From contig CAZSTG010000001.1 in the NCBI GenBank assembly GCA_964609895.1, forward strand, positions 59,202 through 123,201: a stretch of 64,000 nt of DNA, given 5' to 3'. The notes beneath the pieces were generated by a model. That model was not told the DNA's origin and made no database searches. It worked only from the letters and a program-made list of their open reading frames with translations. Of this stretch, positions 2,315-56,935 are shown in pieces. The stretch comes from an uncultured Gammaproteobacteria bacterium (GTDB lineage Bacteria; Patescibacteriota; Microgenomatia; UBA10105; UBA927). The position numbers were made by a program, and so were the translations under genes. How positions within the stretch are numbered: position 1 is the stretch's first letter; every line of letters begins with the position of its first letter.

Positions 2315-3078
2315 GAAAGTGTAAAAAGTGTCTCTGCATTTTTTGTCGTTTGTTCTTCAACAATCTGTATATCTATGTTTTGAAGTTTTGCAACAGTTTT
2401 GGCAATCAGCGGAACATATTTTGGTTCAGAACGCTGTCCTCGATGTCCTTCCGGAGGAAGATATGGTGAATCAGTTTCAAGGAGTAGTCTGTTAAGGGGA
2501 ATGGATGGAATCACCATCGCTAATTGTTTTGAATAGGTGGCATTTCCATCAAGGCCTATATAGAATCCGCGTTCAGTGATGTTTCTGATGTCTGCCAGTC
2601 CGCCCGAAAAACAGTGAAACACGCCATGCGGCATTGACGGCAGACTGTCGAGTACGTCAAAGATATCATCAAATGCATCTCTGCTGTGGATGATGACGGG
2701 CAGATTCAATTCGAGTGCAACGCGAAGCTGCATTTCAAAAAGTTGTTTCTGTTCCTCTTTTTTTCCGGTTGCGGGGTATTCTCCGTACGGATGGTAATCA
2801 AGTCCGCATTCACCGATGGCAACGTTGGTTTTGGTGATGAGTTTTTTTATGTCATTCGGAGAAAATTTATCCATCGCATTATACGGATGGATGCCGACGG
2901 CGGAATAAATGACACTGGGATTTGCAGCGGCAAGTGTCGCAGCACTAATGGACGTTTTGATGTCATCTCCCGGATTGATAAACTTTTTCACTCCTGCTTT
3001 TTTGGCGTTGCCGATCACCATCGCGCGGTCTTCATCGAAATTGGAAAAGTTGAGATGACAATGTGTATCGATAAACAT
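2311..3078 (-). CDS. tatD: TatD-family metal-dependent DNase/hydrolase
   Basis: MFIDTHCHLNF... canonical TatD N-terminus (HxH), ...GLDYH..., ...ETDSPYL. The start is set at ATG 3076-3078. Confidence 0.85.
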   Translation of the reverse strand: MFIDTHCHLNFSNFDEDRAMVIGNAKKAGVKKFINPGDDIKTSISAATLAAANPSVIYSAVGIHPYNAMDKFSPNDIKKLITKTNVAIGECGLDYHPYGEYPATGKKEEQKQLFEMQLRVALELNLPVIIHSRDAFDDIFDVLDSLPSMPHGVFHCFSGGLADIRNITERGFYIGLDGNATYSKQLAMVIPSIPLNRLLLETDSPYLPPEGHRGQRSEPKYVPLIAKTVAKLQNIDIQIVEEQTTKNAETLFTLS

Positions 3079-3088
3079 AACAGAATAA

Positions 3089-3128
3089 TACCAATAAATA
3101 CCAATAAGTACCAATAATTCAATAAATT
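3089..3128. repeat. 10-bp tandem repeat (TACCAATAAN x ~3.5) between the metG stop and the tatD start
   Basis: Plus strand reads taccaataaa|taccaataag|taccaataat|tcaataaatt. It shares a 15-nt core (atttattgaattatt on the opposite strand) and ttattggtatttattg with the region 53557-53615. Confidence 0.7.
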
Positions 3129-4554
3129 AGATGATGCGTGGAAACAGAGGTGTTTGAGACTGAATAGTGGGGCCTTTAAATTGGTTTAGTATTTTCTCCG
3201 CTGTTTCCGGAAGAAACGGCTGTAATTGCACAGCAATGGAGTGAATATTCTCAATTGTTGGAATAAGAGTTTTTTGCAGTTCATCTCCGGATAATGTCCA
3301 TGGTTTTTTGTCGTTCATATATTGATCCGTTTCTTTTATTTTTTCCCAAATAATTGAAAGTGCGTCATGTAAACGAAATTCTTCAATCGCTTTTTTATAA
3401 TCATTGGTATACATGTCCACATATTTCGCATTTAGCATTGGCCATGTAGCATTACCTGCGAGTTTAGCAATCCTTGATATAAGATTTCCCAAACCATTTG
3501 CGAGATCTGAGTTGTAGAGTTCCTTAAATCTTCGTTCGGAAAAATCTCCGTCAGCAAATGTCGGCAGTTCCCGAAGGAAATAGTAGCGCAGGCTTTCTGC
3601 GCCGTATTTTTCAATGAGTGTAACCGGATCAACGATGTTACCGACAGTTTTGCTCATCTTCTGTCCGTCGACGGTGAAGTATCCATGTACCAAAATTGTC
3701 TTTGGCAACGCAAGTCCCGCGGAGAGCAGAAATGCCGGCCAGTAAATCGCATGAAACCTATTGATACCTTTGCCGATGACATGAACATCGGCGGGCCACC
3801 ACTTTTTGTATTGTTTCTCGTCCCATCCGAAACCGACGCCCGACTGATAGATATTGAGCGCGTCAAACCACACATACATCCGTTGCGAGTTATCATCTGG
3901 CACTGGCACGCCCCAGTTTTTTGCCCGTTCATTGCTTCTGGAAATGCTGATATCTTGCAGTGGTTGTTTCAGGAATGCGAGCACCTCATTTTTTCTTGTT
4001 TCAGGAACAATACGAAGCGTATCTGATGTGACAAGATCTATAATTTGTTTTTGATATGTGGACAGCCGGAAAAAATAATTTTCTTCTTTCACGAGTTCGA
4101 GTTTTTTCCCAGGATGCTCGAAACATTCACCTTGGTTGTTCAGTTCGTCTTTCGTATAGTATTGTTCGCACCCGACACAATACAAACCCTCATAGGATTT
4201 TTTGTAGATGTCATGTTCGCAGAGTTTCCACAGTTTTTGGCTTGCTTTATAGTGATGTTCTTTATCGCTGCCTTTCTGGAATACATCAAACTGAACATTG
4301 AGTTTTTTGGCGAGCTCTCGGAACAGAACTGAGTTTTTGTCGATAAATTCCTGAAGCGGTACACCTGCTTTTTCCGCGGCCTGCACATTTTTCAGGGCAT
4401 TTTCGTCGCCGCCCGAGAGTAGGCATGTGTCATCACCCAACAGCCGGTGTGTGCGTGCAATGGTATCCGCCTGCACAAATTCCAGTGCATGACCTACGTG
4501 GGGAGCTGCGTTGACATACGGGATTGCTGTGGTGATATAAAACTTGTCTGCCAT
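3127..4554 (-). CDS. metG: Methionyl-tRNA synthetase (short form, 475 aa, no C-terminal tRNA-binding extension)
   Basis: MADKFYITTAIPYVNAAPHVGHALE (HIGH-type motif) ... KMSKT (KMSKS motif). Class I aaRS. Confidence 0.92.
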   Translation of the reverse strand: MADKFYITTAIPYVNAAPHVGHALEFVQADTIARTHRLLGDDTCLLSGGDENALKNVQAAEKAGVPLQEFIDKNSVLFRELAKKLNVQFDVFQKGSDKEHHYKASQKLWKLCEHDIYKKSYEGLYCVGCEQYYTKDELNNQGECFEHPGKKLELVKEENYFFRLSTYQKQIIDLVTSDTLRIVPETRKNEVLAFLKQPLQDISISRSNERAKNWGVPVPDDNSQRMYVWFDALNIYQSGVGFGWDEKQYKKWWPADVHVIGKGINRFHAIYWPAFLLSAGLALPKTILVHGYFTVDGQKMSKTVGNIVDPVTLIEKYGAESLRYYFLRELPTFADGDFSERRFKELYNSDLANGLGNLISRIAKLAGNATWPMLNAKYVDMYTNDYKKAIEEFRLHDALSIIWEKIKETDQYMNDKKPWTLSGDELQKTLIPTIENIHSIAVQLQPFLPETAEKILNQFKGPTIQSQTPLFPRII

Positions 4555-22509: not shown

Positions 22510-23076
22510 TTATTTTTTCCCTGCGGCGGTGTTGACGCCCACCAGTTCGGCTTCCAAAGTATATTGGATGCCTATACTCGTTGCTTTGTCGATAGTGCCG
22601 ATTTCAATATTTTTGAGTGATTTGGTTGCATTGAGATTTAACAGGAGTTGTGAAAAACTCTGCACTGTAAGGGAAGTGATCTGCGCGGTAACTTTTCCGT
22701 TATTTATTGACAGCGTTTGGAAATAGGTACCGGACGGAAGAAGCGTGTGCAGTGTCTGGATTGTGTCCGTCGGTTTACTTTGGCGGTCGAGTAGCACTTT
22801 GATTTTGTTTAACGAATCCTGTGTCCTTTTGAATGTTATTTCCAAACCCTGATTATAGGCAATGATGTCCTGTTTTTGTGAAATTTCATCTTTCAGGTCT
22901 GTGAGTTGCCGGTCAAGGCTGAACCGAGAAATAAAAGCGATAAGCACAATCATTTCCGTCGTAATCATGATATATCTTCCATACGTGGTGATCCACGTGA
23001 TCATTCGTCCGACGGGGGAGAGTTCTTGTTTTGATGAACCCAGAAGATTTATCTCAACTGTTGATGTGGCAGGCAT
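22510..23076 (-). CDS. pilN: Type IV pilus assembly protein PilN-like
   Basis: MPATSTVEINLL (the conserved PilN 'INLL' N-terminus)... one TM helix (IMITTEMIVLIAFI), then coiled coil (LTDLKDEISQKQ). Confidence 0.65.
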   Translation of the reverse strand: MPATSTVEINLLGSSKQELSPVGRMITWITTYGRYIMITTEMIVLIAFISRFSLDRQLTDLKDEISQKQDIIAYNQGLEITFKRTQDSLNKIKVLLDRQSKPTDTIQTLHTLLPSGTYFQTLSINNGKVTAQITSLTVQSFSQLLLNLNATKSLKNIEIGTIDKATSIGIQYTLEAELVGVNTAAGKK

Positions 23077-34377: not shown

Positions 34378-35343
34378 ATGGATGAAGCAACACAGACAGA
34401 TATTCTTCGAATCAAAGACCTCACTGCGCAGGCAAAAGATGTTTTAATCCTCACACATAAAGACCCAACAGCTGACGGCATCGGAAGTGCACTGGCACTG
34501 TATGTTGCGATGAAAAATGCAGGGAAGCATGTGGTGATTGGCTGTCCGACACCGATGATTGTGGAATTTTCCTCGTTTGTGGGTGCGGACAAAGTGGAAA
34601 CTAAATTTTCCAAGAAAAACTTTGTTATTTCCCTCGACTATGAGGACGGATCCATCGATAAGGTGACGTACAACATCGAAGGACAGAAATTTAACCTCAT
34701 TATTGAGCCGCGTCCGGGGTTTGAAAACTTCAATGAAGAGCATGTAAGTTTTCATCACAAGGGAACTGCGGCTGATGTCATTTTTATCATCGACACCATG
34801 CACCTCGGTGAACTGGGAGAATTGTATGAAGGGGAGAAGGAACTGTTTGCAACACGACCGATCATCAATATCGACAAACATATTGAGAACGCAAAATATG
34901 GTGCAGTAAACATTATCGATCATGCGGCAACAACAGCAGAACTTGTGGCAACGGTGATGTCGGAAATTGGCACACCACTGACGGAAGACATCGCAACAAA
35001 CCTTTTAAATGCAATCTACAGCGCATCAAATAATTTTCAAGAAATTACTGCGCGGACATTTGAAGTGGCAGCAGCGTGTGTGAAAGCAGGAGGAAAACGA
35101 TTCCCCACTGAACTGCCCGTTGCGCCGGAATTTATCAAAGAACTTTCCCAACCTGTTGTTGATGAAAAACCACAGGAAGTTGCAGCACCTCAGCCTCAGC
35201 CAAAGCCTGATCGTCCTTTGGACGATGCAGCTCAAACGATTTCCGCTCCACCTATTGAACCTGAAAAAACGCCTGCACAACCTCAAAATCCGCCGGAAGA
35301 TTGGTTAAAACCAAAGATATTTAAGAGTTCATCGATTGCTTAA
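34378..35343 (+). CDS. DHH-family phosphoesterase (NrnA-like nanoRNase / pAp phosphatase) with a Pro/Gln-rich C-terminal tail
   Basis: ...LILTHKDPTADGIGSALAL (DHH motif II context)...IIDHAATTAEL..., C-terminus ...PQEVAAPQPQPKPDRP...PAQPQNPPEDW. Confidence 0.7.
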   Translation: MDEATQTDILRIKDLTAQAKDVLILTHKDPTADGIGSALALYVAMKNAGKHVVIGCPTPMIVEFSSFVGADKVETKFSKKNFVISLDYEDGSIDKVTYNIEGQKFNLIIEPRPGFENFNEEHVSFHHKGTAADVIFIIDTMHLGELGELYEGEKELFATRPIINIDKHIENAKYGAVNIIDHAATTAELVATVMSEIGTPLTEDIATNLLNAIYSASNNFQEITARTFEVAAACVKAGGKRFPTELPVAPEFIKELSQPVVDEKPQEVAAPQPQPKPDRPLDDAAQTISAPPIEPEKTPAQPQNPPEDWLKPKIFKSSSIA

Positions 35344-35346
35344 AAT

Positions 35347-35682
35347 ATGTTTAAGCTGCAGAAAATAGTTCCAATAATTAAAGAATTGTTGAGGTACTTT
35401 GCGTTTTTAGTAGAAGAAATTCCTAACATCTTAACTATTATTGTCGTTCCAACATTTTTAGGAATGTTTGTTTTACTTCCCAACATAAATAATTGGATTT
35501 CAAGTATTATTACAGTTCTTTTAATGCTTTTTTTATTCGTTCGAAGTTTTAGATATTTAAATGTTAAAAATTTAAGTACCCTATGGATGGTGTATTTAGG
35601 AATTACAGGTTTTGCCTTATTTATGTTTGAAGCATGTGTGATACTTGTCGCGATTGAAAATGCTAAATTGAATTTTAAATAA
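35347..35682 (+). CDS. Small hydrophobic membrane protein at the start of the AT-rich island
   Basis: 111 aa, 3 predicted TM helices. The AT-rich composition matches the downstream R-M genes. Confidence 0.4.
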   Translation: MFKLQKIVPIIKELLRYFAFLVEEIPNILTIIVVPTFLGMFVLLPNINNWISSIITVLLMLFLFVRSFRYLNVKNLSTLWMVYLGITGFALFMFEACVILVAIENAKLNFK

Positions 35683-35730
35683 TTCGGATTTTTAAATTTT
35701 TACAATTTCTATTCATAGAAATTCTTTAGA

Positions 35731-35759
35731 TTCACCCAAAGTTAGTAATGGGTTATAAT
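35731..35759 (+). promoter_or_regulatory. Candidate promoter TTCACC-17-TATAAT for the first methyltransferase gene (the -10 lies inside the annotated ORF start; the true start may be ATG 35772)
   Basis: ttcacc 35731-35736; tataat 35754-35759; in-frame ATG 35772 (MNKNFQSTKPIVIDLF). Confidence 0.4.
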
Positions 35760-36851
35760 GTAATTCCGATAATGAATAAAAATTTTCAATCCACTAAACC
35801 TATCGTTATTGACCTCTTTTCTGGTTGTGGAGGATTATCATATGGATTTTCTCAAGCGGGGTATGATGTTAGATTAGGAATAGATAATGATGAAACTGCT
35901 TTAAAAACTTTTGAATTAAACCATCCACATAGCAAAGGTGTAAATATTGATTTATCAGATAAATTTGCGATTAGTAAGATTAAAAAAATATTAGGTAATT
36001 CTAAGGTAGACGTTATTATCGGTGGTCCACCCTGTCAAGGATTTTCTTTAACAGGTACAAGAAAATTTGATGATGATCGAAATAAATTATATTTGTCTGT
36101 TATAAAGGCTGTAAAAGAATTAAAACCAAAAGCTTTTATGATAGAAAATGTAACTGGGATGGCCACCTTATATAAAGGAAAGGTAAAAGAAGAAATTATA
36201 AAGAGATTTAATAAATTAGGTTATAACGTCAATAGTCAAGTTTTATGTGCGGCTGACTATGGAGTACCTCAGATACGAAAAAGATTAATATTTATTGGAT
36301 TAAGAAAAAAATTAGGTGAATACGATTTCCCAATACCAACAAATAATCCAACAAATTATATATCTACCGCAGATGCCATAAGCGATTTACCTTCTCGAGA
36401 AAATAATATTGGTATTGAAGCAGATCAATATTTAAATAAACCAAAAACTGAATATCAAATTTTAATGAGAAAAAATTCAATTAAACTTTATAATCATGTT
36501 GCGACAATTCATTCTAAAAAGGTTATAGACGTGATTAAACTGGTACCAGAAGGGAAAAATTATAAAAGTTTACCAGAAGGCGTCGGCTCTCATAGAAAAT
36601 TTCATGAAGCTTGGACACGTTATCATAGTAAAAAACCTTCAAGGACTATCGACACAGGCCATCGTAATCATTTTCACTATAAGTATAATAGAGTTCCTAC
36701 AGTTCGCGAGAACGCCAGATTGCAATCCTTTCCAGATGTGTTTATTTTTCTTGGAAGTAAAACTCAGCAGAATAAGCATGTTGGCAATGCCGTTCCACCA
36801 CTACTAGGATATTGCGTTGCTAAAAAACTTTTACCTTATCTAAAAAAGTAG
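35748..36851 (+). CDS. DNA (cytosine-5)-methyltransferase (Dcm family), M1
   Basis: Motif I VIDLFSGCGGLSYGF; motif IV GGPPCQGFS; motif VI ENV; motif VIII QIRKRLIFIG; motif X GNAVPPLL. Confidence 0.92.
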   Translation: MGYNVIPIMNKNFQSTKPIVIDLFSGCGGLSYGFSQAGYDVRLGIDNDETALKTFELNHPHSKGVNIDLSDKFAISKIKKILGNSKVDVIIGGPPCQGFSLTGTRKFDDDRNKLYLSVIKAVKELKPKAFMIENVTGMATLYKGKVKEEIIKRFNKLGYNVNSQVLCAADYGVPQIRKRLIFIGLRKKLGEYDFPIPTNNPTNYISTADAISDLPSRENNIGIEADQYLNKPKTEYQILMRKNSIKLYNHVATIHSKKVIDVIKLVPEGKNYKSLPEGVGSHRKFHEAWTRYHSKKPSRTIDTGHRNHFHYKYNRVPTVRENARLQSFPDVFIFLGSKTQQNKHVGNAVPPLLGYCVAKKLLPYLKK

Positions 36852-36880
36852 CTAAAAATTTTAATTGCATCACGTTCAAT

Positions 36881-38110
36881 ATGAGGAAACTTAATGTTAT
36901 AGATTTGTTTGCCGGATGTGGAGGTTTAACTGATGGTTTTGAACAATCAGGTTTTTTTAAAACTCTAGCTTGTGTTGAATGGGATAAATCTTGTTGTGCA
37001 ACATTAGCTAAAAGATTAGCAAATAAATGGAATTATAAAAATGGTTCTGAAGTTGTTATCAGGTATGACATACAAAAAACTGCAGATTTGCTAAAAGGAT
37101 TTAATGATCCAAAATACGGATTTAATCTTGGGTTAAATAAACTTATTGAAAATAAAGTCGATTTATTGATTGGTGGTCCTCCATGTCAGGCGTATTCAGT
37201 TGCTGGTAGAATTAGAGACAAACACGGAATGCAACTAGATTATCGTAATTATCTTTTTGAAAGTTATATTAAAGTATTAGATAAATTTAGGCCAGAAATA
37301 TTTATTTTTGAAAATGTTTTAGGACTACTGAGTGCAAAGCCAGGTGGTGTTTCTATCATTAATAGAATAAAAAAAGCTTTTTCACAAATCGGTTATGAAA
37401 TTGTCGATGACATAAGGGGAAATGCAGTTTTTGACGTTGCGGATTATGGAGTTCCTCAAATAAGAAAACGTGTTATATTACTTGGTTTAAATAAAAATGT
37501 GTATAAAGAAAATAGGCAAAAAATTTTAATTGATTTTTATCAAAATATATTACCCTCATTTAAAGAACAACATAGGAAAACAGTTAAAGATGCAATTTTT
37601 GACCTTCCAAAATTTCAAATAAATAAATTAGAAATTGATTCAAACAACAAAGTGCAACCACATTTTTCTGAATCCATGTCTATATTAAATCATTATCCAA
37701 GATATCATAGTAAAAGAGATATTCAAATATTTTATGAATTAGCTTTGGATCAAAGTAAGGGGAATAAAAAATTTCATTCAGTTAAGGATATCAAAAAATT
37801 ATATACAGAAAAAACCGGTAAAATTTCTAATGTACATAAATATTTTGTTTTAAAATGGAATGAGCCTAGTAATACAATAGTTGCGCATCTATATAAAGAT
37901 GGGTTAAGACATATACATCCAGATTATAAGCAAGCGAGATCGATTTCCGTGCGTGAAGCGGCACGACTACAGTCGTTCGATGACGATTTTGAATTTTTAG
38001 GATCAATGGGTGATCAATATAAAATGATTGGAAATGCAGTTCCTCCGCTCTTTGCTAAAAAATTAGCTTGTGCCGTGCACAAGTTTAAAGTTAAATATAA
38101 TGGAGTATAA
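36881..38110 (+). CDS. DNA (cytosine-5)-methyltransferase (Dcm family), M2
   Basis: VIDLFAGCGGLTDGF; GGPPCQAYSVAGR; FENV; QIRKRVILLG; GNAVPPLF. The second adjacent m5C MTase has a distinct target-recognition domain insert. Confidence 0.92.
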   Translation: MRKLNVIDLFAGCGGLTDGFEQSGFFKTLACVEWDKSCCATLAKRLANKWNYKNGSEVVIRYDIQKTADLLKGFNDPKYGFNLGLNKLIENKVDLLIGGPPCQAYSVAGRIRDKHGMQLDYRNYLFESYIKVLDKFRPEIFIFENVLGLLSAKPGGVSIINRIKKAFSQIGYEIVDDIRGNAVFDVADYGVPQIRKRVILLGLNKNVYKENRQKILIDFYQNILPSFKEQHRKTVKDAIFDLPKFQINKLEIDSNNKVQPHFSESMSILNHYPRYHSKRDIQIFYELALDQSKGNKKFHSVKDIKKLYTEKTGKISNVHKYFVLKWNEPSNTIVAHLYKDGLRHIHPDYKQARSISVREAARLQSFDDDFEFLGSMGDQYKMIGNAVPPLFAKKLACAVHKFKVKYNGV

Positions 38111-38118
38111 TAAGATAA

Positions 38119-39117
38119 ATGAATGAACAGATATTATATATTCATAAACTGAACGCCCAAGAATTGGGTTTTAGACACGGTTCTTCTCATAAGGCTGGAA
38201 GATATATATATGTATCAAAAAAGTATTTAAATTTTTTTCCTCAATTAAGTGAATCGATTAAAAACGATCATATTCTTATTGATATTATTCCACCCGATTC
38301 TGACAAATTAATTTTGACTAATTATGTTTATCATAACGATAAAATAGTAGATTCAAAATCAAATGGTAGAAATGAATTTAGAATTTATTTGAATGAAGGA
38401 AATGATTTAGAAGGAAATTATTATCAGCCAAATGATATTGTTGTTATTCAGTCAGTAAAAATTGATGATAGTGCAACGTATAAAATATATAAATTTGACC
38501 AAATTCAACATGGTGTTGTATATCGACAACTTGACGAGTTATTGCGTAGATATGATAGTGCAGGAGCTTCTCATGCAATGATTCCGTTTGATGAACTTAA
38601 ATTTTTATCTATTCCTCAATATCCTACCGTAGATTTACAAAGTAAAGTTTTACCAAATGATGTAAAAGAAACAATTTTTAGTGCCCCAGTAGGTGTTTCA
38701 CTTCCATCTGAAGGGGAAGTGATTCGAAAAATTCGAAGCGCTAATTTTCGCGACTTAGTTCTCATGTTTTATGATTATAAATGTGCCGTCACTGGTAGAA
38801 GTAAAATAATTGAATATGGAACATTAACAAATCTTGAAGCGGCACATATTTATGCTTTTTCTAAAAGTGGAGGAGATAATCCATCAAACGGAATACCTTT
38901 GATTAAGGATATCCATTGGGCTTTTGATAATGGATTTTTTACTTTGACACCAGAATTTAAAATAAAAGTACATGATAATGCAATGAAAATTTCTTATTTA
39001 GCTGAATATAACAATAGGATTATAAATTTACCTGAAGATTCAAGAGCTAGACCTAATATGTCATCAATTGAGTGGCATAATAAGAATGTATTTGGTCAAT
39101 TTGTTAGGAAACAGTAA
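38119..39117 (+). CDS. Putative restriction endonuclease: N-terminal DNA-recognition domain fused to a C-terminal HNH nuclease domain
   Basis: C-terminal region CAVTGRSKI...LEAAHIYAFSKSGGDNPSNGIPLIKDIHWAFDNGFF matches the HNH (ββα-Me) signature (Cys/His-His...Asn...His). Immediately downstream of, and co-oriented with, the two MTases. Confidence 0.7.
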   Translation: MNEQILYIHKLNAQELGFRHGSSHKAGRYIYVSKKYLNFFPQLSESIKNDHILIDIIPPDSDKLILTNYVYHNDKIVDSKSNGRNEFRIYLNEGNDLEGNYYQPNDIVVIQSVKIDDSATYKIYKFDQIQHGVVYRQLDELLRRYDSAGASHAMIPFDELKFLSIPQYPTVDLQSKVLPNDVKETIFSAPVGVSLPSEGEVIRKIRSANFRDLVLMFYDYKCAVTGRSKIIEYGTLTNLEAAHIYAFSKSGGDNPSNGIPLIKDIHWAFDNGFFTLTPEFKIKVHDNAMKISYLAEYNNRIINLPEDSRARPNMSSIEWHNKNVFGQFVRKQ

Positions 39118-39276
39118 TTTTTTGCAGAGGTTAGTTTTATGAAGTTTGTTCCAAAATAACCTTAAGATTTGATCTTCGTTTCGATTTGTTATATACCAAC
39201 GGTAATCGATTTTGCTCCTTAAGAAGTTGGCGAGGATAACTTTCTCCCCAATAATTTGGGTTTCAGTTTATTTCAG

Positions 39277-39550: not shown

Positions 39551-40075
39551 TCACGCCTCGTCAGCTTTTTGAGGAGCTATTTTAATATATACTCTAACTT
39601 TTCCTCGTTTTAGAATCAGCTTTTTTCTGAGCGCTTCGAGAAGATAGGGAATGCTCAGATATTGTGCGAGTTGTTTTATGAGAAGTTTTTGTACTTCCAT
39701 TGGTAACGCAAACACATTTGGTGCTTCCATAAACCTAGCGGCATTTGTCAGATGTTGGAGGATAGGACAGGAGGACATCACACAGAGTGATTTTTCTTTT
39801 TGTTTTTCAACAACGGTGTTGAATAGTAATTTTCCTAGTCCTTTTCCCTGAAATCTTAGGAGTGTGACAAGCGGCCCGATTTTTACCCAGTTTTTTGTTT
39901 CAGCTATGCAGCACACCCCTGCAAATTCTTTGTCCACAAAGATACAGTATGGATTTGGATATCGTTTCCAGTTTTTTCGATCGACGAATGCGAGGTCTGG
40001 CGCGGTTTTGATGGAGGAAATAAGCTCGGTAATTTCTTGTTCCGTGAGCGTGTGTTTTTCGATTGTGACTTGCAT
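39551..40075 (-). CDS. GNAT-family N-acetyltransferase
   Basis: ...LRFQGKGLGKLLFNTVVEKQ (acetyl-CoA-binding Q/RxxGxG/A motif). Confidence 0.75.
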   Translation of the reverse strand: MQVTIEKHTLTEQEITELISSIKTAPDLAFVDRKNWKRYPNPYCIFVDKEFAGVCCIAETKNWVKIGPLVTLLRFQGKGLGKLLFNTVVEKQKEKSLCVMSSCPILQHLTNAARFMEAPNVFALPMEVQKLLIKQLAQYLSIPYLLEALRKKLILKRGKVRVYIKIAPQKADEA

Positions 40076-40893: not shown

Positions 40894-41298
40894 ATGGCAA
40901 CAAAAGCAAAAAAAGTTACAAAAAAAGAAGAAAAAGTTGAAAAGAAAGCCGTGAAAACAGCTTCAAAAGTAGAAAAGAAAACAGTGAAGAAAGCTGTAAA
41001 AGCAGTCAAATCCGCACCTGTTGAAGAAATTCCGGCGCCAAGTGAAGAAAAAGCACAAATTATCGCTGAATATCAGGTAAAAGCAGGCGATACAGGAAGT
41101 CCGGAAGTGCAGATTGCGCTTCTCACCGCCCGTATTGAAAAGCTTGCATCCCACCTGAAAACAAACAACAAAGATAATCATTCCCGTCGGGGACTGTTGG
41201 GAATCATCTCAAAACGCCGAAGACTCTTGAACTACCTTGAAACCAAGGAAAAAGCACGGTTTAAAGAAATACAAAAAAAGTTAGGTTTAACAAAATAA
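40894..41298 (+). CDS. rpsO: 30S ribosomal protein S15 with a ~45-aa Lys/Ala/Val-rich N-terminal extension
   Basis: Core: ...[51 protein letters not shown]... (canonical S15). N-terminal extension [39 protein letters not shown]... with no internal Met before the core. Confidence 0.88.
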
Positions 41299-53517: not shown

Positions 53518-53546
53518 TTGACAGAAATAGTTGTTTGCTTTATTGT
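53518..53546 (+). promoter_or_regulatory. Candidate promoter TTGACA-17-TATTGT upstream of the small membrane protein / ytxH pair
   Basis: ttgaca 53518-53523; tattgt 53541-53546. Confidence 0.4.
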
Positions 53547-53556
53547 ATTCATACTA

Positions 53557-53615
53557 ATTCAATAAATATTTATATTTTGAGTATTGGTTTATTGGTATTT
53601 ATTGAATTATTACCG
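53557..53615. repeat. A/T-rich repeat element: 12-bp perfect inverted repeat aattcaataaat ... atttattgaatt flanking TATTGGT direct repeats. Related to the tandem repeat at 3089-3128.
   Basis: aattcaataaat (53557-53568); tattggt ttattggta tttattgaattatt (53583-53612). Shares atttattgaattatt and ttattggtatttattg with the complement of 3085-3128. Confidence 0.65.
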
Positions 53616-53630
53616 TAAGGTATCCTGCCT

Positions 53631-53894
53631 ATGGATCCAGTACAGATAACGATCATCGTAATAAGCTTCATTTTAGTCACCCTCATTGTCATTTTGACGA
53701 TTCAGACGATCGGCATCATGAAAGAATTCAAGTTAACAGTGCAAAAAATTAATAAGATGCTTGATGACGGCGGAAAAGTCACGGGTATTGTGAGTGATTC
53801 AGCTACAAGTATTGCGGGTGTGATTGGCGGCATTAAAACTGGTATGAATGTGTTTTCGATGTTTCGTCGGAAAGGAGAATCCCATGAACAATGA
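53631..53894 (+). CDS. Small membrane protein (DUF948-like: N-terminal TM + short coiled region)
   Basis: MDPVQITIIVISFILVTLIVILTIQTIGIMKEFKLTVQKINKMLDD... Confidence 0.5.
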   Translation: MDPVQITIIVISFILVTLIVILTIQTIGIMKEFKLTVQKINKMLDDGGKVTGIVSDSATSIAGVIGGIKTGMNVFSMFRRKGESHEQ

Positions 53895-55750: not shown

Positions 55751-56935
55751 TCATCTTCCTTTGTGGTTTTTTAGAAGAACTATTGTCGTTGGTATTGTTG
55801 TTACAACAGTGAGTATTCCAAGACTAAACATCACCCATCCGCTTCCAAGTTTTGTAAGTATTGGATTTAATGCAAACGTTAAAAGAAAATAAACAAGACT
55901 CACACTCATGTTGAGCGCAGAAATAGCTGTTGCGCGGTATTTCGATTCAAACTCTTGGTTGGTATATTGATCAAGAAATGTAAATCGGACGATACTGATG
56001 AAATAGATGAGGAAGATCATAATTGCAGCACCGATTTTGGGTACAAAGGGAGAGGGTAAAAATCCAAGCATCATGATGATTGGGAAAAGCGTATAAGTTG
56101 CTGTTTTTGAAAGAATTTTTTTCTTTGTTAGAACGATACTTAATACTCCAACGAATAGACTGTTGATTGCAGACAACCATCCACGTGTGACTGGAGAAAA
56201 TCCGACATCTGTCATGTAGGCATTTAAGAGGAAATAAAGATAATACCACGTAATTCCTCCGATAGAGATGTAGTACAGAGAAAAATCTCTGATATATGGA
56301 GTTTTCCATAGTTCTGCAAATCCTCGTTTTGTTTGCCGGATGTAATTTGATAATGTGAATTTTTCTGTATCAATATGGGGTTCGACCATAAAAAGAGTAA
56401 TGATACCGGAAATGATCATCGATACACCGACCAATGTGTATGGAAGTCCTTTGTTGAGAAGAAAGATATATCCGCCAAGCGCCGTTCCGATGATGACGCC
56501 TATTCGATACACCATTTCATTTTCGCTGACTTTCACATTGAAGGATTGTTCCTCGTGAAGTTCTTTCAACGTATCGTAATACAACGCGATATTTGCGCCC
56601 GAGATAAATGTGTTGCCGATCTGTGCAATCACATATCCTGCCCATAGCCATGAGACATCTTTCGCACATGCGATCACGATCCAAGCTGCGCCATGAATCG
56701 CATATCCGAAGGCGACGATAATTTTTCTGCCGAGAAGATCGGCAAGCGCGCCGGTTGGTAGTTCTAAAATGACTGCAATGAGATGTGTGACAGCATAGAT
56801 AACTGCGAGTGTCGCACCGTCAGTAAATTGTGTTTCGTAGGCATACCAGATCGGCATGAAAAACAGTAGAGAGTTAAAAAACCACGAGATGCGGTAGAGA
56901 ATGAGATTCTTTCGGAGGTTGTCTTGATAGGACAT
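55751..56935 (-). CDS. MFS transporter
   Basis: 394 aa, 12 predicted TM helices. Confidence 0.75.
   Translation of the reverse strand: MSYQDNLRKNLILYRISWFFNSLLFFMPIWYAYETQFTDGATLAVIYAVTHLIAVILELPTGALADLLGRKIIVAFGYAIHGAAWIVIACAKDVSWLWAGYVIAQIGNTFISGANIALYYDTLKELHEEQSFNVKVSENEMVYRIGVIIGTALGGYIFLLNKGLPYTLVGVSMIISGIITLFMVEPHIDTEKFTLSNYIRQTKRGFAELWKTPYIRDFSLYYISIGGITWYYLYFLLNAYMTDVGFSPVTRGWLSAINSLFVGVLSIVLTKKKILSKTATYTLFPIIMMLGFLPSPFVPKIGAAIMIFLIYFISIVRFTFLDQYTNQEFESKYRATAISALNMSVSLVYFLLTFALNPILTKLGSGWVMFSLGILTVVTTIPTTIVLLKNHKGR

What the first reader, a model, noticed from the sequence alone, without database searches (positions are those of the whole stretch)
3085..3128. A/T-rich 'TTATTGGTA / TACCAATAA' repeat element found immediately upstream of two unrelated start codons
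3089-3128 holds 3.5 tandem copies of a 10-mer TACCAATAAN, ending 7 nt before the tatD ATG on the minus strand. Its complement shares a 15-nt identical core (ATTTATTGAATTATT) plus TTATTGGTATTTATTG with 53583-53612. That second region sits 16-70 nt upstream of the 53631 small-membrane-protein gene and contains a perfect 12-bp inverted repeat (aattcaataaat/atttattgaatt, 29-nt spacer). Recurrence of the same oligonucleotide architecture in two 5' regions suggests a regulator-binding site, an sRNA target, or a miniature repeat element.
Basis: seen in the sequence. Interest (0 to 1): 0.6.

Follow-up and report, generated by a model that had tools for sequence, protein, structure and literature searches.

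The report
Dispersed ATTGG-array repeat, promoter-bearing copy
The two look-alike AT-rich stretches are copies of a small repeat built from TTATTGG units that is scattered through the genomes of Microgenomates (candidate-phyla-radiation) bacteria, and the copy in front of tatD probably supplies that gene's own promoter.

Summary
R1 (3079-3126, minus strand) holds three exact TTATTGGTA units at a 10-nt period. R2 (53547-53612) shares a 16-mer and a 15-mer with R1 and carries a 13/17-bp inverted repeat.

The window comes from a Candidatus Gottesmanbacteria genome. A shared operator is not supported:
- R1 is absent from the metG|tatD junction in 6 of 7 related genomes.
- R2 is absent in all 3 distinct relatives checked.

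Arrays of the same TTATTGG units recur in many Microgenomates genomes. They occur as one-armed arrays or as inverted arms that fold into long hairpins. They lie in intergenic spacers in either orientation, between convergent genes, inside 16S rRNA genes, and in frame inside SufC and GatB. This resembles a small insertional repeat such as Correia elements or Rickettsia palindromic elements.

A non-sister genome has a 40/41-identical array at the same metG|tatD junction. The same 32-mer also precedes a radA-like gene.

R1 ends in TGgTATTAT six nt before the tatD ATG. That matches the leaderless-promoter geometry of 17 of 56 window genes, so R1 is probably a portable promoter. R2 is a short foldback copy in a 5'UTR.

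How the repeat spreads is unknown. I found no published description.

The parts
3079..3126 (-). R1: the whole 48-nt metG-stop to tatD-start spacer, a one-armed array (TTTATTGAA, TTATTGGTAC, TTATTGGTAT, TTATTGGTA, TTATTC-TGTT).
   Evidence: The orthologous spacer is 3-11 nt in L005/6, L009, L011, L210 and L212. It is 40/41 identical to the array at the same junction in L193.
3089..3117 (-). Three exact TTATTGGTA units at a 10-nt period.
3091..3115 (-). 25-mer ATTGGTACTTATTGGTATTTATTGG, shared with copies in other genomes.
   Evidence: present in L120 (inside 16S rRNA, twice), L145, L160, L180, L193 and 9 metagenome contigs.
3109..3114 (-). -35-like hexamer TTGGTA, 18 nt upstream of the -10.
   Evidence: Promoter scan.
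3085..3093 (-). Extended -10 TGgTATTAT formed by the last unit of the array.
   Evidence: The same terminus with the same spacing to an ATG is seen in L193, L175 and L180.
3076..3078 (-). tatD start codon, 6 nt downstream of the -10; inferred start of a leaderless transcript.
   Evidence: Pfam TatD_DNase. Geometry is shared with 17 of 56 window genes against 1.8 expected. The transcription start site is inferred, not measured.
3127..3129 (-). metG stop codon. Its last base is the first base of the shared 15-mer.
53518..53546 (+). Pre-existing sigma-70-type promoter TTGACA-17-TATTGT of the 87-aa membrane-protein gene, conserved in relatives.
   Evidence: conserved in L012-L017.
53547..53609 (+). 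R2: about 60 nt of extra sequence relative to the three distinct relatives checked (L012-15 are one sequence; L016; L017), lying between the conserved -10 and the start codon, so inferred to be in the 5'UTR.
   Evidence: The intergenic spacer is 60-83 nt in the relatives and 120 nt in the window.
53552..53568 (+). Left arm of the R2 inverted repeat (contains TCAATAA, a degenerate CCAATAA unit).
   Evidence: RNA fold: 17-bp stem, -17 kcal/mol, z -2.8.
53596..53612 (+). Right arm of the R2 inverted repeat (ATTTATTGAATTA).
53583..53605 (+). Three units in R2: ATTGG (53583), ATTGG (53591) and ATTGA (53601).
53598..53613 (+). Imperfect direct repeat (13/16) of the promoter -10 region at 53539-53554. 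The two copies flank the insert.
   Evidence: family D1. The empty site in L012 has a single copy.
53631..53894 (+). 87-aa small membrane-protein gene downstream of R2, conserved in Gottesmanbacteria, with no Pfam match.

Best explanation
R1 and R2 are two copies of a dispersed family of short AT-rich repeats found across Microgenomates (CPR bacteria). The repeats are built from 8-10-bp units with the near-invariant core TTATTGG, which I call 'ATTGG arrays'.

Shown:
- The family has two forms. One is a one-armed array of 3-20+ units. The other is two inverted arms (CCAATAA units, AT-rich spacer, TTATTGG units; 100-115 nt) that fold into a long imperfect hairpin.
- Copies are present or absent between close relatives.
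- Near-identical sequence recurs at unrelated loci and in different genomes.
- Copies are found wherever an insertion can be tolerated: gene-to-gene spacers in either orientation, between convergent genes, inside 16S rRNA genes (one mapped by eye to the tip of helix 40), and in frame inside housekeeping proteins.

Inferred:
- The family therefore behaves as a small non-autonomous insertional (selfish) repeat, like Correia elements or Rickettsia palindromic elements. Array length probably also changes by slippage.
- R1 is a solo arm. Its last unit is the variant TGgTATTAT, placed 6 nt before the tatD ATG. It most likely acts as a portable extended -10 promoter that gives tatD its own leaderless transcript. 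In relatives without the array, tatD follows metG after only 3-11 nt, leaving no room for a promoter of its own.
- R2 is a short, degenerate foldback copy just downstream of a conserved promoter. It lengthens the predicted 5'UTR from about 17 to about 77 nt. It also adds a 17-bp AU-rich hairpin at the predicted 5' end. That may be neutral or may stabilise the mRNA.
- The likeness of R1 and R2 reflects common descent within one repeat family. Both share the derived ATTGA unit, so they are probably related within this genome. It does not reflect co-regulation.

Not known: the enzyme or process that spreads the repeat.
For: Lineage-specific presence:
- The metG|tatD spacer is 3-11 nt in L005/6, L009, L011, L210 and L212, against 48 nt here.
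- R2 adds about 60 nt that are absent from L012-L017.

A real multi-copy family:
- A 20-base pattern hits at least 7 contigs of one Gottesmanbacteria genome, at least 3 sites on a 1.02-Mb Microgenomates contig, and many other Microgenomates genomes.
- Three further arrays lie away from the seed matches in 132 kb of CPR loci, against none in 606 kb of viral loci.
- The 25-mer occurs in 9 metagenome contigs with nine different sets of flanks.

Behaviour like mobile DNA:
- Two identical copies of about 105 nt lie inside one 16S rRNA gene (L120). Other copies lie in 16S of L135 and L129.
- There are in-frame insertions of 15 aa in SufC (L153) and about 11-13 aa in GatB (L095), relative to solved structures.
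- L095 and L110 carry near-identical arms with unrelated flanks.
- Arrays face the downstream gene in both orientations.

Same junction in a non-sister genome:
- L193 has a 40/41-identical array at metG|tatD, while MetG+TatD are only 80% identical.
- The two array-bearing genomes are not sisters on a MetG+TatD tree, although bootstrap support is weak.

Hairpins: full-size copies fold with z of -4.5 to -5.8, and R2 with z -2.8.

Promoter:
- TTGGTA-18-TGgTATTAT-6-ATG is found upstream of tatD.
- 17 of 56 window genes have a -10-like hexamer 4-10 nt upstream of the start codon, against 1.8 expected.
- Arrays ending in TATTAT have a long-ORF ATG at +12 or +13 in R1, L193 (tatD), L175 (T2SSE/PilT-like) and L180 (RadA-like).
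Against: - No target-site duplication could be defined. There is a possible TAC...TAC at R2 and nothing at R1.
- No transposase or other partner gene was found or searched for systematically.
- Array ends fade into AT-rich flanks, so element boundaries are soft.
- R2 is flanked by a 16-nt imperfect direct repeat of the local -10 region. Part of it could therefore have arisen by local duplication or template switching rather than insertion.
- R2's match to the family HMM is modest (17 bits, E=1e-4), and that test is partly circular.
- The same-site array in L193 could instead mean an old, selectively maintained promoter with several losses.
- The relatives are only about 75-87% identical at the DNA level, and the tree has weak support (bootstraps 0.45-0.56). 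Gain versus loss is not settled.
- Promoter activity is inferred from sequence only.
- Only 64 kb of this genome could be examined.
Confidence: 0.6

Rival explanations
1. Shared regulator-binding site. A DNA-binding protein recognises phased TTATTGG repeats and co-regulates tatD and the small membrane-protein gene. On this view the arrays elsewhere are other members of its regulon.
For: - The 10-bp phasing of direct repeats is typical of multimeric DNA-binding proteins.
- The 7-nt core TTATTGG is conserved across many Microgenomates lineages, while the 1-3-nt spacers vary. That suggests recognition by some protein, possibly the one that mobilises the repeat.
- An array is kept 40/41 identical at metG|tatD in two genomes.
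- L144 and L122 have arrays upstream of an orthologous small membrane gene.
Against: - It is absent from the orthologous sites in most relatives.
- Downstream genes are functionally unrelated: tatD, radA-like, pilT-like, atpC, cysS and RNase J.
- About half of the arrays between co-directional genes face away from the downstream gene. Some lie between convergent genes, inside 16S rRNA or inside SufC and GatB.
- Unit spacing alternates between 8 and 10 nt, so sites do not stay on one face of the helix.
Confidence: 0.15
2. RNA-level element. The repeats work in the transcript as hairpins that terminate transcription, or as RNase III-type processing sites like the intervening sequences of rRNA. 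Alternatively they are unstructured AU-rich leaders that help ribosomes start without a Shine-Dalgarno sequence, or targets of a small RNA.
For: - Full-size copies fold far better than shuffles (z -4.5 to -5.8), and R2 forms a 17-bp stem.
- Many arrays start 0-12 nt after a stop codon and are followed by T-rich sequence.
- Copies lie inside 16S rRNA genes, one mapped by eye to the tip of helix 40. Published surveys place short non-intron CPR rRNA insertions at known 23S intervening-sequence sites cleaved by RNase III (PMC11270868).
- R1 is unstructured and AU-rich right up to an AUG that lacks a Shine-Dalgarno sequence.
Against: - One-armed arrays, including R1, cannot form the hairpin (z +0.7).
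- The stems are AU-rich and R2 lacks a U-tract, so neither window copy matches an intrinsic terminator.
- There is no Rfam match.
- Function in both orientations and in frame inside proteins is hard to reconcile with a single RNA role.
- No candidate small RNA was found.
Confidence: 0.12
3. Independent local products of replication slippage or template switching in AT-rich spacers. The R1/R2 similarity would then be low-complexity coincidence, possibly seeded by -10-like TTATTG sequences.
For: - Exact 15-mers shared between distant sites are common in the window (31 k-mer pairs).
- Copy number varies from 3 to more than 20 units (L207).
- Perfect (TTATTGGTAT)n arrays exist in unrelated giant-virus-like contigs.
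- The right half of R2 resembles the adjacent promoter -10 region, and its left arm is an inverted copy of that region (D1, D2, I3).
Against: - The expected number of such arrays per window is 0.005.
- Identities of 25-41 nt between genomes whose proteins are about 80% identical.
- Identical 105-nt copies at two sites in one 16S gene.
- A consistent inverted-arm architecture with conserved termini and similar spacers within one genome.
- A strong concentration in Microgenomates.
Confidence: 0.08

Closest known systems
Rickettsia palindromic elements (RPE; named from my own knowledge, Ogata et al. 2000)
   Same: Small AT-rich repeats without an ORF, scattered through a reduced genome of a host-dependent bacterium. 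They are found in intergenic DNA, in RNA genes and in frame inside conserved protein-coding genes. Here that means SufC and GatB and 16S rRNA.
   Different: RPEs are single palindromes of about 100-150 bp. Here the arms are tandem arrays of 8-10-bp TTATTGG units, solo arms of 30-45 nt are common, and copy number varies. The host lineage differs (CPR/Microgenomates). There is no sequence similarity.
Correia elements (CREE) of Neisseria, a MITE family (named from my own knowledge)
   Same: A short inverted-repeat element inserted next to genes. It can bring outward-facing promoter elements, and when co-transcribed it forms hairpins. R1 gives TTGGTA-18-TGgTATTAT. Full copies fold strongly.
   Different: Correia elements have defined 26-bp terminal inverted repeats and a TA target duplication. 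Neither a fixed terminus nor a duplication could be shown here. The arms here are internally repetitive.
REP/BIME elements of proteobacteria
   Same: Very short extragenic palindromic repeats that sit just after stop codons within operons. They occur singly or in inverted clusters.
   Different: REPs are GC-rich units of 20-40 nt with a conserved GTAG head, linked to RAYT transposases. The units here are AT-rich TTATTGG repeats, and no RAYT link was examined. REPs are not reported inside rRNA or proteins.
Intervening sequences and other insertions in CPR rRNA genes (PMC11270868)
   Same: Copies in L120, L135 and L129 are hairpin-forming insertions in 16S rRNA genes; the L120 second copy and L135 map by eye to the tip of helix 40. 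The paper locates most CPR rRNA insertions at the top or base of stem-loops.
   Different: The paper catalogues introns, homing-endonuclease carriers and short unclassified insertions. A term search of its main text found no repeat, AT-rich or hairpin wording. The present family also lives outside rRNA genes.
Extended -10 (TGnTATAAT) promoters of leaderless mRNAs
   Same: R1's terminus TGgTATTAT lies 6 nt before the ATG. That matches the -10-to-ATG spacing of 4-10 nt seen for 17 of 56 genes in the window.
   Different: Here the promoter is the last unit of a repeat array and recurs as a 32-nt module upstream of unrelated genes in several genomes. Activity is untested.

Membership tests
MITE (miniature inverted-repeat transposable element) | Terminal inverted repeats | tested here: inconclusive
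   R2 has 13/17-bp inverted arms, and full-size family members have inverted arms of 30-45 nt. R1 and many other copies are one-armed.
MITE (miniature inverted-repeat transposable element) | Target-site duplication of fixed length | tested here: inconclusive
   Filled and empty sites were compared. R2 shows a possible TAC...TAC plus a 16-nt imperfect flanking repeat, and R1 shows nothing. The relatives are too diverged (about 75% DNA identity) to fix the boundaries.
MITE (miniature inverted-repeat transposable element) | Many dispersed copies, no coding capacity, presence/absence between relatives | tested here: met
   Absence in relatives.
MITE (miniature inverted-repeat transposable element) | An autonomous partner element with the same ends that encodes a transposase | not tested
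   No systematic search was possible. None was seen in the 8-kb loci examined by eye.
Rickettsia-palindromic-element-like selfish repeat | In-frame insertion into conserved protein-coding genes and insertion into structural RNA genes | tested here: met
   For the family, not for the two window copies. SufC has +15 aa relative to 2d2e. GatB has +11-13 aa relative to 3h0l_B. 16S rRNA insertions are in L120, L135 and L129.
Rickettsia-palindromic-element-like selfish repeat | Sequence homology to RPE families | not tested
   No RPE sequences were available to compare. The unit structure is visibly different.
REP/BIME | Imperfect palindrome of 20-40 nt with a conserved GTAG head, linked to a RAYT gene | tested here: not met
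   The sequences show AT-rich TTATTGG units and no GTAG head. RAYT genes were not searched.
Sigma-70 extended -10 promoter driving a leaderless mRNA (R1 only) | TGn + TAnnnT hexamer, with the start codon about 6-8 nt downstream | tested here: met
   TGgTATTAT is at 3093-3085 and the ATG at 3078. The same geometry is seen in L193, L175 and L180.
Sigma-70 extended -10 promoter driving a leaderless mRNA (R1 only) | A mapped transcription start at the A of the ATG | not testable with these tools
   This needs 5'-end mapping or metatranscriptomes.
Transcription-factor operator / regulon motif | Conservation at orthologous promoters and a fixed position and orientation relative to regulated genes | tested here: not met
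   It is absent at orthologous sites in most relatives. Both orientations occur, and sites lie between convergent genes, in rRNA and in coding sequence.
Intrinsic (rho-independent) terminator | GC-rich stem-loop followed by a U-tract | tested here: not met
   The terminator scans list nothing at R1 or R2. R1 is unstructured, and the R2 stem is AU-rich without a U-tract.
Known RNA families (Rfam 15) | A match at the gathering threshold | tested here: not met
   There are no hits at R1 or R2. The best sub-threshold hit has E=0.76.

The most novel reading that the evidence does not exclude
ATTGG arrays are a so far undescribed, CPR-specific mobile module, spread by an unknown protein that recognises the TTATTGG core. 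On this reading it does three things in these minimal genomes. It splits tightly coupled operons into separately transcribed leaderless genes by delivering a ready-made extended -10 promoter. It accounts for part of the unexplained non-intron insertions in CPR rRNA genes. It adds short peptide loops or hydrophobic segments to housekeeping proteins. Recurrent insertion of the same 32-41-nt module at the same metG|tatD junction in non-sister genomes would then reflect either target preference or repeated selection for an independent tatD promoter.
Probability: 0.3. Interest if true: 0.7.

Novelty: new member of a known kind. Interest (0 to 1): 0.5.

Why it matters
If this is right, the two sites are not a regulon signal. 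They are local traces of a repeat family that reshapes very small CPR genomes.

- It inserts between genes that are otherwise only 3-11 nt apart, and it can bring a promoter with it.
- It sits inside 16S rRNA genes, where CPR bacteria are known for puzzling insertions that disturb 16S surveys.
- It can even sit in frame inside essential proteins, as Rickettsia palindromic elements do.

That would give a concrete, searchable sequence signature (phased TTATTGG units). The signature could be used to annotate such insertions, avoid false ORF calls across arrays, and study how transcription units evolve in uncultured episymbionts.

For this window alone the consequence is modest. It amounts to a probable internal promoter for tatD and a longer, hairpin-capped 5'UTR for a small membrane-protein gene.

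Tried and rejected
1. Chance. Single exact 15/16-mers are common in the window, and the 16-mer alone gives 67 mostly single hits in viral contigs. I therefore did not rely on them. Array statistics and longer identities settle the question.

2. Type IV pilin remnant. The genome scan pattern also hits the coding sequence of prepilin N-termini, GFTLIELLVVIAIIG. By eye, R1's ATTGAATTATTGGTA equals the codons for IELLV. I rejected this as an origin. The resemblance follows from AT-rich Leu/Ile/Val codons, and family members in general carry no pilin signal.

3. Cross-phylum spread to Gammaproteobacteria. Several array-bearing MAGs are labelled Gammaproteobacteria.
   - The glutamate dehydrogenase of one such contig is closest to named Microgenomates proteins.
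   - The 16S fragment of another does not match E. coli 16S.
   - The labels are therefore unreliable.

4. Giant-virus link. Perfect (TTATTGGTAT)n arrays occur in NCLDV-like contigs. They have no inverted arms or unit variants, so I treat them as independent minisatellites.

5. Cold-shock-domain (Y-box ATTGG) binding.
   - This was a lead from memory.
   - The literature shows only low affinity of CspB for ATTGG (PMC1904285).
   - None of the 10 small ORFs I scanned in the window matched a cold-shock domain.
   - I did not pursue it.

6. DnaA box. TTATCCACA against TTATTGGTA matches at 5 of 9 positions by eye. I did not pursue it.

7. Known RNA families. None matched.

8. Strain-level polymorphism. 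The other assemblies of this genome are identical across R1 and R2, so they give no information.

9. Literature. Searches found no description of these repeats.

10. 'Recent gain in the window lineage only' was my working view until showed the same array at the same junction in L193. I replaced it with recurrent insertion, or with maintenance plus losses.

Full report
**Observation**

The window (43.8% G+C) has short intergenic spacers. Its TatD is closest to named proteins of Candidatus Gottesmanbacteria and other Patescibacteria.

R1 fills the whole 48-nt spacer between the metG stop (3127-3129) and the tatD ATG (3078), both on the minus strand. Read on the coding strand it is:

TAA-TTTATTGAA-TTATTGGTAC-TTATTGGTAT-TTATTGGTA-TTATTC-TGTT-ATG

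- Three exact TTATTGGTA units lie at a 10-nt period. Tandem Repeats Finder reports 3.1 copies at 95%.
- R2 lies between a RodZ-like HTH gene (ends 53510) and an 87-aa membrane-protein gene (ATG 53631).
- R2 shares the 16-mer TTATTGGTATTTATTG and the 15-mer ATTTATTGAATTATT with R1.
- R2 holds an inverted repeat, 13 bp exact and 17 nt at 94%.
- Single exact 15-mers shared between distant sites are common in this window (31 k-mer pairs).
- A cluster of three or more ATTGG within 12 nt is expected only 0.005 times per window.

**Comparison with relatives: not a conserved operator**

Other assemblies of the same genome are identical across both sites.

At the metG|tatD junction:
- The closest relatives are only 74-75% identical in metG/tatD DNA, and 74-87% in the genes around R2.
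- In L005/L006 metG and tatD are separated by TAA-tgt-ATG.
- The spacer is 7-11 nt in L009 and L011, 3 nt in L210 and 6 nt in L212.
- In L007 two small genes separate metG and tatD, so it has no such junction.

Upstream of the 87-aa gene:
- All relatives keep a promoter TTGACN-17-TATTGT.
- The window has about 60 extra nt between that -10 and the start codon. The spacer is 120 nt here against 60-83 nt in the relatives.
- So neither site is a conserved feature of these two genes.

**A repeat family across the lineage**

- One class of hit is coding sequence for type IV prepilin N-termini and is irrelevant.
- The other class is non-coding arrays of TTATTGG units, concentrated in Microgenomates:
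  - at least 7 contigs of Gottesmanbacteria RIFCSPHIGHO2_02_FULL_39_11;
  - five other Gottesmanbacteria genomes;
  - three sites on a 1.02-Mb Microgenomates contig (MFD12003);
  - Chisholm-, Roizman-, Ames- and Shapirobacteria.
- MAGs labelled 'Gammaproteobacteria' that carry arrays are mislabelled. Their glutamate dehydrogenase is closest to Microgenomates proteins.
- Away from the seed matches there are three further arrays in 132 kb of CPR loci, and none in 606 kb of viral loci.
- The 25-mer ATTGGTACTTATTGGTATTTATTGG is shared by R1 and a copy in another Gottesmanbacteria genome. It occurs in 9 JGI metagenome contigs, each with different flanks, and one of them has more than 20 units.

**Anatomy of the family**

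- Units are TTATTGG plus 1-3 variable bases, giving periods of mostly 8 or 10 nt.
- Copies are either one-armed or two inverted arms: CCAATAA units, an AT-rich spacer, then TTATTGG units.
- The two-armed form is 100-115 nt with termini AAATAA...TTATTT.
- The two-armed form folds into long imperfect hairpins (z -4.5 to -5.8). R2 gives a 17-bp stem (z -2.8). R1 is unstructured (z +0.7).

**Where copies sit**

- Between co-directional genes, about half of the arrays face the downstream start and half face away. One lies between convergent genes. Many begin 0-12 nt after a stop codon.
- Two identical copies of about 105 nt lie inside the 16S rRNA gene of L120. Others lie in 16S of L135 and L129.
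- Two copies are in frame inside conserved proteins:
  - SufC of a Chisholmbacteria genome carries the 15-aa insert IITTNKPINTNKYQC, encoded by the array and absent from the solved SufC.
  - GatB of a Gottesmanbacteria genome carries an NNPINTNNPILPINE insert (ORFs).
- L095 and L110 have near-identical arms with unrelated flanks.
- Together these are the marks of a small selfish insertional repeat. They are hard to reconcile with a dedicated operator or a single RNA function.

**The twist at metG|tatD**

- L193 (MFD12003) has an array at exactly the same junction. It is 40/41 identical to R1, although MetG is 81% and TatD 78% identical and the flanking DNA is visibly much more diverged.
- On a MetG+TatD tree the two array-bearing genomes are not sisters, and each has closer relatives without the array. 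Support is weak, with bootstraps of 0.45-0.56.
- The 32-mer ATTGGTACTTATTGGTATTTATTGGTATTATT also stands upstream of a RadA-like gene in L180 and occurs in L160.
- I read this as repeated insertion of one conserved module. The spacer is only 3 nt long, so any insertion between these genes must land at the 'same' site.
- An old, selectively maintained array with several losses is not excluded.
- Where L193 has ATTGG, the window has ATTGA. R2 shares this derived ATTGAATTATT, which points to copying within this genome.

**Function of R1 (inferred)**

- The last unit of R1 is TGgTATTAT, an extended -10, 6 nt before the ATG. TTGGTA lies 18 nt upstream.
- In this window 17 of 56 genes have a -10-like hexamer ending 4-10 nt before the start codon, against 1.8 expected. 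Leaderless transcription therefore appears to be common.
- Among arrays ending in TATTAT, a long-ORF ATG follows at +12 or +13 in R1, L193 (tatD), L175 (PilT-like) and L180 (RadA-like).
- L144 and L122 show the same 7-nt spacing upstream of an orthologous membrane gene. L140 has a short Shine-Dalgarno leader.
- R1 is therefore most likely a portable promoter that uncouples tatD from metG. Arrays with other termini or the opposite orientation show no such link.

**Function of R2 (inferred)**

- R2 starts at about the predicted transcription start of the conserved promoter. It lengthens the 5'UTR from about 17 to about 77 nt and places a hairpin (-17 kcal/mol) at the 5' end. The effect may be neutral or stabilising.
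- Its own -10-like TATTAC is poor.
- R2 is flanked by a 13/16 direct repeat of the -10 region, and its left arm is an inverted copy of that region. Template switching at the site may therefore have contributed.

**Comparison with what is known**

- No Rfam family matches.
- Literature searches found no description of such repeats.
- The survey of CPR rRNA insertions (PMC11270868) notes many short non-intron insertions at known 23S intervening-sequence sites. A term search of its main text found no repeat, AT-rich or hairpin wording.
- In behaviour, the family resembles Rickettsia palindromic elements (in-frame and RNA-gene insertions). It also resembles Correia elements (an inverted-repeat element that carries promoters). 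Both comparisons rest on my own knowledge.
- It fails the REP definition.
- MITE membership is unproven, because neither a target-site duplication nor an autonomous partner was shown.

**Verdict**

- The 'miniature repeat element' reading is supported.
- The 'shared regulator site' and 'sRNA target' readings are not supported.
- This is a new family of a known kind of element, with a probable promoter role for R1. The mechanism of spread is unknown.

Noticed in passing
L153:1952-1984 (SufC gene on the minus strand) and L095:5483-5514 (GatB gene on the plus strand): ATTGG arrays lie in frame inside conserved housekeeping genes. SufC gains 15 aa (IITTNKPINTNKYQC). GatB gains about 11-13 aa (NNPINTNNPILPINE). 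Both are measured against solved structures.
   Followed up: yes
L120:1-1230 (16S rRNA), arrays at 384-423 and 838-877; L135:23-63; L129 at about 1750-1850: Palindromic ATTGG-array copies sit inside 16S rRNA genes, two identical copies in one gene. L120 also has a LAGLIDADG-like ORF (1506-1970, recognised by eye) and a group II intron domain hit just after the 16S.
   Followed up: partly
window 35000-39200: A low-GC island (29-33% against about 45%) carries two C5 cytosine DNA methylases (35748-36851, 36881-38110) and an HNH endonuclease (38119-39117). It is probably an acquired restriction-modification module.
   Followed up: partly
window, upstream of 17 of 56 genes (for example 4554 metG, 7558, 22510-23076, 39551-40075, 55751-56935): A TATAAT-like hexamer ends 4-10 nt before the start codon, far more often than chance (17 against 1.8 expected). 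This suggests widespread leaderless transcription in this genome.
   Followed up: partly
window 53518-53546 and L012, L016, L017: A promoter TTGACN-17-TATTGT upstream of the conserved 87-aa membrane-protein gene is kept across relatives, although the rest of the spacer diverges.
   Followed up: partly
L110:3520-3740: The spacer between two ATTGG arms holds a different repeat with GTCATTGCGAGC...GCTCGCAATGAC inverted motifs. A second small repeat family appears to be nested in the first.
   Followed up: no
L122, L155, L180 (contig CAZWNZ010000001.1) and L124, L129, L140, L144, L165: Public records named 'uncultured Gammaproteobacteria bacterium' (binchicken assemblies) look like Microgenomates. 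Their glutamate dehydrogenase is 75-79% identical to named Microgenomates proteins, and the 16S fragment of L129 does not match E. coli 16S.
   Followed up: partly
L028:881-940, L070:2212-2280, L053:2336-2375: Perfect (TTATTGGTAT)n arrays of 4-7 units lie in intergenic DNA of very AT-rich viral contigs (L053 is named as a giant-virus MAG). They have the same 10-mer but no unit variants or inverted arms, so they are probably independent minisatellites.
   Followed up: partly
L096 (PBP1A-like ORF, array near aa 74) and L155 (331-aa ORF, array near aa 15): Read in the TTATTGG sense the arrays have no stop codons and encode hydrophobic LLVFIGIYWY-like stretches. These coincide with N-terminal membrane-anchor regions of called ORFs. 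Either the arrays are recruited as transmembrane segments or the ORF calls are over-extended.
   Followed up: no
window 40894-41298: The ribosomal protein S15 gene has a lysine/alanine-rich N-terminal extension of about 52 aa, encoded by 21- and 33-nt tandem repeats (Tandem Repeats Finder, 40902-41002).
   Followed up: no
L207:189-400: A metagenome contig (51% G+C) carries an uninterrupted array of 20 or more ATTGGTAYTT units, so arrays can grow to satellite size.
   Followed up: no
L090:7440-7570: A full palindromic copy sits between a 467-aa gene (likely atpD, not checked) and atpC (Pfam ATP synthase epsilon), apparently inside the ATP synthase operon.
   Followed up: partly
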